NCBI RefSeq assembly: GCF_009914755.1
Contig: NC_060927.1
Source: the human T2T-CHM13v2.0 reference genome, Homo sapiens
Length of the DNA: 64,000 nucleotides
Strand: one strand, 5' to 3'
The position numbers were made by a program, and so were the translations under genes. Shown here piece after piece: positions 658 through 54,779 of this stretch (positions are counted from its first letter, which is position 1; every line of letters starts with the position of its first letter). The notes under the pieces are model-generated. The model did not search any database, had not been told where the DNA came from, and saw only the letters and a program-made list of their open reading frames with translations.

Positions 658-763
658 CTGTTAGGCCGGCAGCCTCGGCAGACAGGAAGGCACTCCAAGA
701 AAGCAGGAAAAACAGGCCGGTTTCCAGCATCGGGAACTCACACAGCTTGGTAAATTTGGTCAA
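658..763 (-). CDS. SLC9A9: SLC9A9 (NHE9) internal coding exon, probably exon 8, 106 bp
   Basis: The minus strand translates to [35 protein letters not shown] plus G, matching recalled NHE9 transmembrane sequence. It is preceded by an AC acceptor (764-765) and followed by the U2 donor AG|GTCAGT (657-652). It continues in frame from the exon at 5155-5293. Exon number is from recall. Confidence 0.97.
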
Positions 764-5154: not shown

Positions 5155-5293
5155 CAGTGCTGTGATGATGGCATACGCAGACCCCATTGCAAATGAGCCA
5201 GCGAAGATTCCCAGGAAATTCCCCACAGACTGGAAGAATGCTGCGGCATCAAATGCATTTGGATTCTCCTTGGGACTGTAAATGGATATAGAA
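5155..5293 (-). CDS. SLC9A9: SLC9A9 (NHE9) internal coding exon, probably exon 7, 139 bp
   Basis: The minus strand reads 1 nt plus [46 protein letters not shown]. The acceptor is ccctcttctcttttcAG (5294-5310), phase 2. The exon ends at the ATATCCTTT U12 donor. Confidence 0.97.
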
Positions 5294-46769: not shown

Positions 46770-46970
46770 CCATATATCTGATCCATCCTAAACTCCTCCA
46801 CTTTCTAGCTGAGGGGTTTTGGCAAGTAGTTGAACCTCCCTGAACCTCAGTTTTCTCATCTATTAATAGGATAAGAAGTAAGTATAGCATAGTTGTTGGG
46901 ATTATTAAATGAGCTGGGATATGTAAATCACTTATCAGTACTAACACATAGTAAACACTCAAGTGTTAAA
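46770..46970 (+). mobile_element. MIR directly upstream of the pseudogene
   Basis: Contains 'cctcagttttctcatct' and 'cacatagtaaacactcaa'. Confidence 0.75.
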
Positions 46971-47323
46971 ATTTAAAAATCAGCAGGGGGCTGGGCTGTG
47001 TTGAGTGAGAGGAGTAGTGCACCTGTACAGAGACCTGTGGTGGTGAGCTCAGACAAGCGCCCAGAGGTGGTGGACAAGCACCAGGGAGCCCACGTGGGTG
47101 TGGGCATCCAGAACAACTCCTCAGGCAGACTCAGCAAGAACTCAGAGGGCACCTGAGTTGCTCTAGGTGGTAACCAGCCTTTGAAAAAGGAGAAACAGGG
47201 GGGTGGAGCCAAGATGGCCGAATAGGAACTGCTCCAGTCTACAGCTCCCAGCGTGAGTGACGCAGAAGATGGGTGATTTCTGCATTTCCAACTGAGGTAC
47301 TGGGTTCATCTCACTGGTGAGTG

Positions 47324-47650
47324 TCAGAAAGTGGGTGCAGGACAGTGGGTGCAGCGACCAAGTGTGAGCTGAAGCAGGGCGAGGCATTGTCTCACCCAGG
47401 AAGTACAAGGGGTCAGGGAATTCCCTTTCCTAGTCGAAGAAAGGGGTGACAGACGGCACCTGGAAAATCGGGTCACTCCCACCCTAATACTGCGCTTTTC
47501 CAATGGTCTTAGCAAACGGCACGCCAGGAGATTATATCCCGCGCCTGGCTCAGAGGGTCCTATGCCCATGGAGCCTCGCTCATTGCTAGCACAGCAGTCT
47601 GAGATCAAACTGCAAGGTGACAGCGAGGCTGGGGGAGGGGCGCCCACCAT
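47324..47650 (-). CDS. L1 antisense ORF0 (open, 108 aa); expression unknown
   Basis: MVGAPPPASLSPCSLISDCCASNERGS...RVGVTRFSRC... lies in the L1 5'UTR. The Kozak context is gcaATGG. It is contained in the 47324-47719 ORF of the track. Confidence 0.6.
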   Translation of the reverse strand: MVGAPPPASLSPCSLISDCCASNERGSMGIGPSEPGAGYNLLACRLLRPLEKRSIRVGVTRFSRCRLSPLSSTRKGNSLTPCTSWVRQCLALLQLTLGRCTHCPAPTF

Positions 47651-48225
47651 TGCCAAGGCTTGAGTAGGTAAACAAAGTGGCCCAGAAACTTGAACTGGGT
47701 GGAGCCCACCACAGCTCAAGGATGCCTGCCTGCCTCTGTAGACTCCACCTCTGGGGGCAGGGCATTGCCAAACAAAAGGCAGCAGAATCCTCTGCAGACT
47801 TAAATGTCCCTGTCTGACAGCTTTGAAGAGAGTAGTGGTTCTCCCAGCATGCAGCTGGAGATCTGAGAACGGACAGACTGCCTCCTCAAGTGGGTCCCTG
47901 ACCCCCGAATAGCCTAACTGGGAGGCACCCCCCAGTAGGGGCAGACTGACACCTCACATGGCTGGGTACTCCTCTGAGACAAAACTTCCAGAGGAACGAT
48001 CAGGCAGCAACATTTGCTGTTTACCAATATCCGCTGTTCTGCAGCCTCCGCTGCTGATACCCAGGCAAACAGGGTCTGGAGTGGACCTCCAGCAAACTCC
48101 AACAGACCTGCAGCTGAGGGTCCTGACTGTTAGAAGGAAAACTAACAAACAGAAAGGACATCCACACCAAAAACCCATCTGTATGTCACCATCATCAAAG
48201 ACCAAAGGTAGAGAAAACCACAAAG

Positions 48226-49242
48226 ATGGGGAAAAAACAGAGCAGAAAAACTGGAAACTCTAAAAATCAGAGTGCCTCTCCTCCTCCAAAGGAACTCAGC
48301 TCCTCACCAGCAATGGAACAAAGCTGGACGGAGAATGACTTTGACGAGTTGAGAGAAGAAGGCTTCAGACGATCAAACTACCCTGAGCTAAAGGAGAAAG
48401 TTCGAACCCATGGCAAAAAAGTTAAAAACCTTGAAAAAAAATTAGACAAATGGCTAACTAGAATAAGCAATGCAGAGAAGTGCTTAAAGGACCTGATGGA
48501 GCTGAAAACCAAGGCACGAGAACTACATGACAAATGAACAAGCCTCAGTAGCCAATTCAATCAACTGGAAGAAAGGGGATCAGTGATGGAAGATCAAATG
48601 AATGAAATGAAGTGAGAAGAGAAGTTTAGAGAAAAAAGAATAAAAAGAAATGAACAAAGCCTCCAAGAAATATGGGACTATGTGAAAAGACCAAATCTAC
48701 GTCTGACTGGTGTACCTGAAAGTGATGGGGAGAATGGAACCAAGTTGGAAAACACTCTGCAGGATATTATCCAGGAGAACTTCCCCAATCTAGCAAGGCA
48801 GGCCAACATTCAAATTCAGGAAATACGGAGAACGCCACAAAGATACTCCTCGAGAAGAGTAACTCCAAGACACATAATTGTCAGATTCACCAAAGTTGAA
48901 ATGAAGGAAAAAATGTTAAGGGCAGCCAGAGAGAAAGGTCGGGTTACCCACAAAGGGAAGCCCATCAGACTAACAGCTGATCTCTCGGCAGAAACTCTAC
49001 AAGCCAGAAGAGAGTGGGGGCCAATATTCAACATTGTTAAGGAAAAGAATTTTCAACCCAGAATTTCATATCCAGCCAAACTAAGCTTCATAAGTGAAGG
49101 AGAAATAAAATACTTTACAGACAAGAAAATGCTGAGAGATTTTGTCACCACCAGGCCTGCCCTAAAAGAGCTCCTGAAAGAAGCACTAAACATGGAAAGG
49201 AACAACTGCTACCAGCCATTGCAAAAACATGCCAAATTGTAA
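48226..49242 (+). pseudogene. L1 ORF1p, disrupted
   Basis: Reads MGKKQSRKTGNSK...PLQKHAKL* with in-frame TGA stops at 48535 and near 48613. Confidence 0.95.
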
Positions 49243-49305
49243 AGACCATCGATGCTAGGAAGAAACTGCATCAACTAACAAGCAAAATAACCAGCTAACA
49301 TCACA

Positions 49306-53129
<3,824 letters not shown>

Positions 53130-53355
53130 ACAATGAGAACACATGGACACAGGAAGGGGAACATCACACACCGGGGCTTGTTGTGGGGTGGGGGGATGGG
53201 GGAGGGATAGCATTTGGAGATATACCTAATGTTAAATGACGAGTTACTGGGTACAGCACACCAACATGGCACATGTATACATATGTAACTAACCTGGACG
53301 TTGTGCACATGTACCCTAAAACTTAATATAATAATAATTTAAAAAAAAGAAATAG

Positions 53356-53736
<381 letters not shown>

Positions 53737-54779
53737 GACTGCACTAGCTTTTCAAAGCCGTAAGGAGATTTGGGATTTCTTGAAGGCTATTGCACGTGTT
53801 TTTGAGAGAAGTTATTGTGAACTTGCACAAGTAGTCATTGATAGTGCAAATGTAACATTATACATGGTGCACTTACAGAGTGCTATGATGAACTGGGGAA
53901 TAGATATCAGCTTCCAATCTATTGCTTGGCAGCAGCAATCACCATGACAGAGAAAAAGAACATAGAGACTCTGAATGTTCCTCAGCCACCACCCAATTCT
54001 AGTTATGAATGTCAGCTCCGTTTGTGTCTTGCCACAGGCAAAGCCCTCAAACTTTTGGTGTGCAGCACAGACACAGTATGCCACATGCAGAGGCGGTGAC
54101 TCGCAGCAGAAGGAGTGGAACTATGTAGTCAGCGGTGGTTCTTTTCTGGCAGACCTCTCACTAACAAAATGAAATTGGAAGAGCCAAAGATCCCAAAGGA
54201 CTGTGCTGTACAGGTTAGAGTGAGGCAACCTTTTCAAAACCCAACACCAGTTGAGAACTGAATTGGTCCCATTGGCTGATCCCCAGGCCCCTCCCGCTCC
54301 TTTTCATTGTTGCTGTCATTTCCTACTGGATGGTGTGAAATTTCTTTGCACTGCTCTGAATTCCCTATGAATGGATTTAGTTCTGAGGAATTACAAGTGA
54401 AAAATTTCATCTGTGAATGAGACCAACACAAATAATTAATAAAATACAAAGAGCTAAAACAAATAGTTGGAAGCTGGTAATGAATGAGCTTGGGTGGAGG
54501 TGAACATTTACTTCTCCAATTAAACTGTGAGCTGCCAGGAGGGCAGCCCATTATTTACTTAATATATCTGTATTTATTGTATTTGATTTATCTAATTTAA
54601 TGTATTATGTATTTTACCCTTCTAAACACCATTAGGAAAATACGGCTTTCTCACTGTAACTGCTGGGAAGGAGCATGCTTTTGTTTAGAATGTGAGCAAC
54701 TGGGGAGCAGAAGCTGTTTTCCTAAGGGACAGCTAGATGGAGGATGGAGGGATGGAGGGATAAAAGGAGAGAAAGGGTA

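What the first reader, a model, noticed from the sequence alone, without database searches (positions are those of the whole stretch)
47324..47800. L1 ORF0 splice donor is phase-matched to the SLC9A9 exon: predicted ORF0-NHE9 fusion
Seen: the L1 is antisense to SLC9A9, so its antisense promoter points in the SLC9A9 sense direction. ORF0 is open from a strong-Kozak ATG at 47650. Its donor after coding nt 191 is intact (TTCCAG|GTGCCG, exon end 47460), while the donor after nt 106 is GC (47545). Nt 191 is phase 2, and the next SLC9A9 acceptor (5293) is also phase 2. Joining gives ...CGA TTT TCC AG|T TCT ATA TCC = R-F-S-S-S-I-S-I-Y, in frame. Established: primate L1 antisense promoters drive chimeric transcripts, and ORF0 forms fusions with host exons through these two donors. 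Inference: this locus could encode a lineage-specific protein of 63 ORF0 residues joined to the C-terminal part of NHE9, expressed when L1 is de-repressed. A phase match has roughly a 1-in-3 prior, so this is only a testable hypothesis.
Basis: partly seen in the sequence, partly recalled or inferred. Interest (0 to 1): 0.8.

Follow-up and report, generated by a model that had tools for sequence, protein, structure and literature searches.

The report
Intronic L1PA4 with in-phase ORF0 donor
An old, dead LINE-1 element in an SLC9A9 intron has an antisense reading frame that would join in frame to the next exon, but its splice site is weak and published RNA data show only unspliced RNA here, so the predicted fusion protein is unsupported.

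Summary
The ORF0 ATG is at 47650 in a GGCAATGG context. The frame is open, with GT after nt 191 (exon end 47460, phase 2) and GC after nt 106. The SLC9A9 acceptor at 5293 is also phase 2, and the join reads ...[13 protein letters not shown] in frame. The element is a 6151-bp dead L1PA4. Its donor features are typical of its family rather than special to this copy: 7 of 7 close relatives share them, and the same 17-mer occurs 1047 times in the genome. The nt-191 donor (CAG|GTGCCG) scores about 0 bits on a crude matrix, against 5.1 bits for the young-L1 form; stronger nearby donors are out of frame. Published data argue against the fusion. SLC9A9 is absent from the EST catalogue of spliced L1-antisense transcripts. 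A brain and glioma study lists this same L1 (Id_668) with 8 reads in 11 samples, contiguous across the donor, so unspliced. A fusion would also lack NHE9 residues 1-252, including the ion-binding Asp244. Verdict: an ordinary intronic L1 with a one-in-three phase coincidence; the fusion is unproven and unlikely.

The parts
47198..53348 (+). Full-length, dead L1PA4 element (6151 bp), antisense to SLC9A9, in the intron between the exon encoding ...GESVLNDAVAIVLT and exon 5293-5155
   Evidence: The 5' end GGGGGGTGGAGCCAAGATGG and the short A-tail are seen. The ORF1 ATG is at 48226, giving a 5'UTR of about 1028 nt. The longest + strand frames are only 327 and 572 aa. The length equals the 6151 bp of the L1PA4 listed as Id_668. 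Identity of the two was checked by the spacing to the next L1: 41,703 bp in hg19 against about 41,694 bp here.
47183..47197 (.). 5' target-site duplication GAAAAAGGAGAAACA; the 3' copy GAAATAGGAGAAACA lies at 53349-53363 (14 of 15 bases identical)
   Evidence: Read directly.
47324..47650 (-). ORF0-like antisense frame: 108 codons plus TGA, with the ATG at about L1 nt 452
   Evidence: Of its first 63 residues, 47-49 are identical to the 70-71-aa ORF0 of three young-type copies.
47458..47460 (-). Site equivalent to ORF0 splice donor 2: last exon base 47460 (coding nt 191, phase 2), GT at 47459-47458, context CAG|GTGCCG
   Evidence: Crude matrix score is -0.14 bits. The same 17-mer occurs 1047 times in the genome.
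47543..47545 (-). Site equivalent to ORF0 splice donor 1, not a GT donor here: CCAG|GCGCGG, phase 1
   Evidence: GC at this place in 7 of 7 close relatives. GT in 3 of 4 young-type copies looked at.
47394..47396 (-). Competing, better-scoring donor TGG|GTGAGA inside the extended frame (coding nt 255, phase 0). Joined to exon 5293 it gives a stop after 14 residues.
   Evidence: 2.76 bits.
47763..47765 (-). Upstream ATG (about L1 nt 567) opening a 59-codon frame that overlaps the ORF0 ATG out of frame
   Evidence: Present in 6 of 7 relatives.
46897..47496 (-). Span of the published chimera Id_668 (hg19 chr3:143339171-143339770), converted to window coordinates (within about 10 bases). It is contiguous across donor 2 and the L1 5' end and does not reach the ORF0 ATG.
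   Evidence: Conversion is anchored on the L1 start and checked.
5155..5293 (-). SLC9A9 coding exon (139 nt) encoding the last base of Tyr252 and NHE9 residues 253-298. Strong acceptor, phase 2.
   Evidence: Acceptor rank.
658..763 (-). Next SLC9A9 coding exon; the predicted fusion frame stays open through it

Best explanation
This is an ordinary, fixed, coding-dead L1PA4 retrotransposon lying antisense in a roughly 73-kb intron of SLC9A9. Like more than a thousand copies of its family, its antisense strand keeps an ORF0-like frame and a GT at the donor-2 position. The phase match with the next SLC9A9 exon is a one-in-three coincidence. Minus-strand RNA over its 5' end is either low-level unspliced L1-antisense transcript or SLC9A9 pre-mRNA. 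An ORF0-NHE9 fusion mRNA is not made at any meaningful level. Shown: the anatomy, the family-typical donors, the absence from the EST catalogue, and the unspliced published reads. Inferred: that the weak donor, the start-site positions and the upstream ATG keep any in-frame product negligible.
For: Anatomy and dead coding frames. Family-typical features: 7 of 7 nearest relatives have GC at donor 1 and GTGCC(G/A) at donor 2; 4 of 5 relatives that could be evaluated are open through nt 191; the donor 17-mer has 1047 genome copies and 0 in the reversed control. Weak donor: -0.14 bits, against 5.13 for the young-type CAG|GTGCGT (764 genome copies); 12.7% of 3317 GT sites do as well. Competing donors at 47396, 47483, 46754 and 46705 score 1.7-4.5 bits and are out of frame or lie after the stop. 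An upstream out-of-frame ATG overlaps the ORF0 start. Eleven AATAAA/ATTAAA signals lie within 7.2 kb downstream of the L1 end. Literature: SLC9A9 has 0 hits in the Criscione 2016 supplements, whose EST rows are mostly L1PA2 (317) and L1PA3 (113), with L1PA4 at 34. Pinson 2022 Table S2 lists Id_668 as an unspliced-type chimera with reads 0,1,0,1,0,0,1,1 in gliomas and 0,4,0 in controls, not validated and with no EST. In that study 2.9% of chimeras were spliced, 12 of 36 tested started near +200, and host-locus transcription drives same-orientation chimeras. No paper holds SLC9A9 together with 'antisense promoter' and 'chimeric' or with L1PA*.
Against: Nothing in the sequence forbids the fusion. 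The ATG has a good context, and the frame is open to the donor and through two SLC9A9 exons. The acceptor is among the best 3 of 632 candidates in 42 kb. Minus-strand RNA does exist at this L1 in brain and glioma, and the authors found 31 of 32 tested L1PA1-7 chimeras to start in the L1 antisense promoter. Eleven total-RNA samples with single-digit read counts cannot exclude a rare spliced isoform. My donor matrix is built from recalled textbook frequencies, not MaxEntScan. I could not see the Denli 2015 list of 57 ORF0 fusions, the Garza 2023 and Adami 2025 supplements, or the other 4 of 5 RefSeq SLC9A9 transcripts.
Confidence: 0.85

Rival explanations
1. A rare in-frame ORF0-NHE9 fusion mRNA is made from this L1's antisense promoter in some tissue or tumour, but the product is a non-transporting truncated protein of no consequence.
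For: The phase match and open frame, the strong acceptor, minus-strand reads at the L1, and the report, via reviews, that ORF0 fusions with host exons occur.
Against: The donor is weak and has better out-of-frame competitors. No EST exists. The published reads are unspliced. The base rates are low: 57 of about 3200 ORF0 loci fused and 2.9% of chimeras spliced. The fusion lacks residues 1-252, including Asp215, Asn243 and Asp244.
Confidence: 0.07
2. Antisense transcripts from this L1 do splice into SLC9A9, but from stronger donors (47396, or 46754 and 46705 in the flank). This gives out-of-frame or non-coding chimeras that are degraded or act only by interfering with host transcription.
For: Those donors score 2.8-4.5 bits against -0.14 for donor 2, and 47396 joined to the exon stops after 14 residues.
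Against: No spliced EST exists for SLC9A9. The Id_668 reads run contiguously to 46897, past 47396. The matrix is crude.
Confidence: 0.05
3. The minus-strand reads at the L1 5' end are simply SLC9A9 pre-mRNA, and the L1 antisense promoter of this copy is silent.
For: The data are Ribo-Zero total RNA. The gene and the antisense promoter point the same way. The read span stops at window 47496, short of the classical +450 start region. Id_668 itself was never validated. The authors find that chimera levels follow the host locus. CpG is half decayed, and the roughly 120-nt 5'UTR segment that holds the ZNF93 target is retained.
Against: 31 of 32 tested L1PA1-7 chimeras in the same study did start inside the L1 5'UTR.
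Confidence: 0.4
4. The fusion is a functional hominoid-specific NHE9 isoform, for example a dominant-negative partner or a decoy for the C-terminal tail.
For: Only that it would keep TM7-13, including TM8 of the dimer interface, and the C-terminal regulatory tail.
Against: All of the above. In addition, TM1 (the other half of the TM1-TM8 dimer contact) and the ion-binding residues would be lost. There is no sign of constraint: ORF0-like frames in relatives end at 60, 81, 87, 172 and 194 codons.
Confidence: 0.01

Closest known systems
L1 ORF0 and ORF0-host exon fusions (Denli et al. 2015, Cell 163:583; seen only through Criscione 2016 and two reviews)
   Same: The frame lies antisense in a primate L1 5'UTR with its ATG at about L1 nt 452 in a good context. 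47-49 of the first 63 residues match young-copy ORF0. There is a GT after nt 191. The L1 is antisense in an intron, so its antisense promoter faces the downstream host exon.
   Different: The canonical 70-71-aa frame and stop are absent (108 codons here). Donor 1 is GC. Donor 2 has C and G at +5 and +6 instead of G and T, about 5 bits weaker on my matrix. No fusion RNA or peptide is known for SLC9A9.
Spliced L1-antisense-promoter chimeric transcripts known from ESTs (Criscione 2016; e.g. L1PA2-MET rows in its supplementary file 8)
   Same: The same architecture: a full-length L1PA element antisense in an intron, upstream of coding exons.
   Different: Those have spliced ESTs and are mostly L1PA2 or L1PA3 (317 and 113 rows against 34 for L1PA4). 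SLC9A9 has none.
Unspliced L1 chimeric transcripts of normal brain and glioma (Pinson et al. 2022, PMC9396940)
   Same: This very L1 is catalogued there as Id_668 (L1PA4, 6151 bp, host SLC9A9, chimera on the gene strand), with the contiguous L1-plus-flank shape of the unspliced majority.
   Different: Nothing differs; this is what the locus is on present evidence. Id_668 itself was not among the RT-PCR-validated chimeras.

Membership tests
L1 ORF0 (Denli 2015) | Frame on the antisense strand of a primate L1 5'UTR, ATG near L1 nt 452 with a good Kozak context | tested here: met
   ATG at 47650 is L1 nt 452-453, context GGCAATGG.
L1 ORF0 (Denli 2015) | Sequence homology to the 70-71-aa ORF0 | tested here: met
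   47, 48 and 49 of 63 residues are identical to three young-type copies, whose frames are 71 aa.
L1 ORF0 (Denli 2015) | Canonical length and stop (about 70-71 aa) | tested here: not met
   108 codons here; one extra base after the donor changes the tail.
L1 ORF0 (Denli 2015) | Two GT splice donors inside the frame (after nt 106 and nt 191; positions recalled, and seen in young copies) | tested here: not met
   Donor 1 is GC. Donor 2 is GT but in a weak context.
L1 ORF0 (Denli 2015) | Transcribed from the antisense promoter and translated | not testable with these tools
   The only evidence is 8 unvalidated total-RNA reads that do not reach the ATG.
ORF0-host exon fusion / spliced L1 chimeric transcript | L1 antisense to the gene and upstream of an exon, with compatible phase | tested here: met
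ORF0-host exon fusion / spliced L1 chimeric transcript | Observed RNA junction between the L1 donor and the host acceptor | tested here: not met
   0 SLC9A9 hits in the Criscione supplements. Id_668 is contiguous. No paper links SLC9A9 with L1PA* or with antisense-promoter chimeras. Raw RNA-seq could not be searched.
L1PA4 subfamily | RepeatMasker call, and the long 5'UTR that keeps the segment deleted in later L1PA3 and younger subfamilies | tested here: met
   Labelled L1PA4 in Pinson Table S2. The distance from donor 2 to the ORF1 ATG is 770 nt, against 647-650 in young copies. The 129-bp ZNF93-site deletion is described in PMC7110667. Best other copies are 92-94% identical.
Functional Na+/H+ exchanger (NHE, Pfam PF00999) | Complete 13-TM fold with Asp215 and the Asn243-Asp244 'ND' motif | tested here: not met
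   The ND motif lies in the upstream exon (...GESVLNDAVAIVLT). The fusion would start at residue 253. The residues' roles are taken from Winkelmann 2020.

The most novel reading that the evidence does not exclude
In brain or in demethylated or tumour cells, a minor share of antisense transcripts from this L1PA4 starts upstream of 47650 and uses the weak donor at 47460 to reach exon 5293. This would give a hominoid-specific protein of about 457 aa: 63 ORF0 residues, one Ser, then NHE9 253-645. It would keep TM7-13 and the regulatory tail and could disturb endosomal NHE9 dimers or their partners. NHE9 is a gene linked to autism and ADHD (recalled).
Probability: 0.03. Interest if true: 0.45.

Novelty: already known. 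Interest (0 to 1): 0.12.

Why it matters
If the fusion were real, it would be one more case of a primate retrotransposon giving a new N-terminus to a host protein, here in a gene linked to neurodevelopment. As it stands, the locus mainly shows that an ORF0 phase match is cheap. Thousands of L1 copies carry the frame, one in three intronic copies will be in phase, and in the older subfamilies donor 1 is not even a GT and donor 2 is weak. Scans for ORF0 fusions should therefore weight donor context, subfamily and junction evidence rather than phase alone.

Tried and rejected
- Papers not held: Denli 2015, and Speek 2001 and Mätlik 2006. The ORF0 donor positions therefore rest on recall plus the young copies seen.
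- The search of earlier findings was not open.
- Paper reading answered 'closed' for the supplements of Garza 2023 and Adami 2025. These catalogues of neuronal and stem-cell L1 chimeras may bear on the claim and were not seen.
- The Lanciano 2024 supplements hold 6 SLC9A9 mentions. The two shown concern other L1s. The expected hg38 coordinates of this L1 gave 0 hits, but the relevant file was cut when stored.
- A strict regex for the neighbouring L1's 5' end found nothing. blastn then placed it.
- Donor 1 as a GC-AG intron was considered and rejected: its context CAG|GCGCGG is poor and it is phase 1, so out of frame.
- No structure or complex prediction was run. It would not bear on whether the RNA exists.
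- The one paper holding SLC9A9, LINE-1 and 'chimeric transcript' is an unrelated bisphenol A study, judged from its title and the start of its abstract.

Full report
**Observation**

On the minus strand the ATG sits at 47650 in the context GGCAATGG. The frame runs 108 codons to TGA at 47326-47324. After coding nt 191 the sequence is TTTTCCAG|GTGCCGTC (last exon base 47460, phase 2). After nt 106 it is CCAG|GCGCGG, a GC. The SLC9A9 exon 5293-5155 follows a long pyrimidine tract and CAG. It reads NHE9 sequence from its second base ([20 protein letters not shown]...). This matches horse NHE9 chains at E = 6e-23; 8 distinct PDB sequences matched at E <= 0.01, all NHE9 or NHE6. I located the upstream coding exon with a Pfam PF00999 search of the window's own genome. 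It lies about 14.8 kb beyond the window's end and ends ...GESVLNDAVAIVLT-TA|GTAAGT. The natural junction codon is therefore TA|T (Tyr), which confirms phase 2. Joining 191 nt of ORF0 to the exon gives ...[14 protein letters not shown]..., open through the next exon as well.

**What the element is**

The L1 runs from 47198 to 53348 on the + strand (6151 bp). It is flanked by a 15-bp target-site duplication, identical at 14 of 15 bases. ORF1 starts at 48226, so the 5'UTR is about 1028 nt. The longest sense frames are 327 and 572 aa, so both L1 proteins are broken (intact lengths are recalled). The genome search gave 5725 first-look candidates. Of the 40 scored, the best non-self copies are 92-94% identical. 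Pinson et al. 2022 Table S2 lists an L1PA4 of exactly 6151 bp on the + strand in SLC9A9, as Id_668. I checked that it is this element by spacing. The next + strand full-length L1 in that table (an L1PA5) starts 41,703 bp further in hg19. In the window's genome an L1 5'UTR starts about 41,694 bp further.

**The donor features are family traits**

In the 7 nearest relatives, 7 of 7 have GC at the donor-1 position. All 7 have GT at donor 2, followed by GCCG (4 copies) or GCCA (3 copies). The 17-mer around donor 2 occurs 1047 times in the genome, with 0 hits for the reversed control. The variant ending GTGCGT occurs 764 times. The 4 fetched copies of that variant have a short 5'UTR (donor to ORF1 ATG 647-650 nt, against 770 here) and a 70-71-aa ORF0 ending RCVRHPFL. 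Three of these 4 have GT at donor 1; the fourth did not match my pattern. So the canonical ORF0 with two GT donors belongs to the young, short-5'UTR lineage.

This copy belongs to the older lineage, which keeps a 5'UTR segment of about 120 nt. PMC7110667 describes a 129-bp deletion of the ZNF93 target that arose in L1PA3 and is carried by younger subfamilies (passages read). Of the 5 relatives my script could evaluate (2 of 7 lacked the search core), 4 are open through nt 191. Their frames end at 60, 81, 87, 172 and 194 codons, so an open frame of 63 codons is nothing special.

**Donor strength**

I used a position matrix built from recalled textbook 5' splice-site frequencies, so it is crude. 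Donor 2 here (CAG|GTGCCG) scores -0.14 bits, and 12.7% of the 3317 minus-strand GT sites in the window score as well or better. The young form CAG|GTGCGT scores 5.13 bits (top 0.4%). The natural upstream SLC9A9 donor scores 3.44 bits. Several nearby sites score better than donor 2:
- 47396, TGG|GTGAGA: 2.76 bits, phase 0, giving a stop 14 residues into the exon.
- 47483: 1.67 bits, phase 0.
- 46754 and 46705: 4.2 and 4.5 bits, both after the stop.

The SLC9A9 acceptor itself is strong, in the top 3 of 632 YAG candidates (2893 AG sites in all) over 42 kb.

**Other obstacles**

An ATG at 47765 opens a 59-codon frame that overlaps the ORF0 start out of frame. It is present in 6 of 7 relatives. 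Pinson et al. cite L1 antisense start sites at +300 to +500 and at +150 to +250, and 12 of their 36 tested chimeras started at the +200 region. The ORF0 ATG is at about +452, so many antisense transcripts would not contain it. Eleven AATAAA/ATTAAA signals lie in the 7.2 kb downstream of the L1 end. The first 600 nt keep 16 CpG, against 29-33 in three young copies.

**Published RNA evidence**

Criscione et al. 2016 catalogued 988 spliced L1-antisense transcripts from ESTs. SLC9A9 gives 0 hits in the 10 held supplementary files; only SLC9A7 appears. The EST rows per subfamily are L1HS 54, L1PA2 317, L1PA3 113, L1PA4 34, L1PA5 12 and L1PA6 30. That paper also relays that 57 of about 3200 genic ORF0 loci were seen fused to an exon.

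Pinson et al. 2022 used Ribo-Zero stranded RNA-seq on 8 gliomas and 3 control brains. They list Id_668 at this L1 as a chimera on the gene strand at hg19 chr3:143339171-143339770. Reads were 0,1,0,1,0,0,1,1 in the gliomas and 0,4,0 in the controls. It was not RT-PCR validated and is not known from ESTs. In window coordinates this is about 46897-47496. It is contiguous across donor 2 and the L1 5' end, so it is unspliced, and it stops short of the ORF0 ATG. In that study only 44 chimeras (2.9%) showed splicing. The authors conclude that host-locus transcription drives chimeras that run in the host gene's orientation. Because the data are total RNA and SLC9A9 runs the same way, these 8 reads could equally be pre-mRNA (my inference). 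Against that, 31 of 32 tested L1PA1-7 chimeras did start within the L1 5'UTR.

Full-text searches found no paper holding SLC9A9 with 'antisense promoter' and 'chimeric', or with L1PA*. One unrelated paper holds SLC9A9, LINE-1 and 'chimeric transcript'.

**What the fusion would be**

The product would be 63 ORF0-like residues, one Ser, then NHE9 from residue 253. Winkelmann et al. 2020 (passages read) describe a 13-TM fold. Asp215 (TM5) and the strictly conserved Asn243-Asp244 (TM6) form the ion site, and dimerisation runs through TM1 and TM8. The ND motif lies in the upstream exon, so the fusion would lack TM1-6, the ion site and half of the dimer contact. It could not exchange ions on its own.

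**Verdict**

The best reading (about 0.85) is an ordinary dead intronic L1PA4 whose antisense RNA, if any, is unspliced. I put a rare in-frame fusion mRNA at about 0.07 and a functional fusion protein at about 0.01.

**Limits**

I had no raw RNA-seq, CAGE or Ribo-seq, and no MaxEntScan. The Denli 2015 paper was not held. Two supplements were closed. Four of the 5 RefSeq transcripts were unseen.

Noticed in passing
window 5154 down to 764, minus strand (intron between SLC9A9 exons 5293-5155 and 763-658): This intron looks like a U12-type AT-AC intron. It begins CACTG|ATATCCTTTG. It ends ...TTTCCCTTAACTTATCTTCCTCAC|TTGACC, with a TCCCTTAAC branch-site-like motif about 13 nt before the AC. Whether it is listed in minor-intron databases was not checked.
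   Followed up: partly
G000:C3 about 146,408,893 (window about 88,893, outside the window), + strand; locus L014 from about 994: A second full-length L1 lies antisense in SLC9A9, in the preceding intron. It is L1PA5 in Pinson Table S2 (Id_669) and is 84% identical to this L1 over the 5'UTR. It has more chimeric reads than Id_668: 3,1,4,0,3,0,0,2 in gliomas and 0,3,0 in controls. A third, an L1PA4 (Id_667), lies further downstream in the gene. Their ORF0 state and phase were not examined.
   Followed up: no
genome-wide, from loci L002-L013: Donor 1 of ORF0 is GC(G/A) in the long-5'UTR copies and GT in the short-5'UTR copies. Donor 2 also gains G and T at +5 and +6 in the short-5'UTR copies. So both canonical ORF0 donors, and the 71-aa stop, look like acquisitions of the younger L1 lineage. 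The sample is small: 7 and 4 copies.
   Followed up: partly
window 53349-53480: Just after the L1's 3' target-site copy comes a short unique stretch and then a T-rich run followed by GAGACAGTGTCTCACTCTGTCAC. This looks like the end of an Alu on the opposite strand. It adjoins the annotated UBTD2P1 pseudogene (53738-54258).
   Followed up: no
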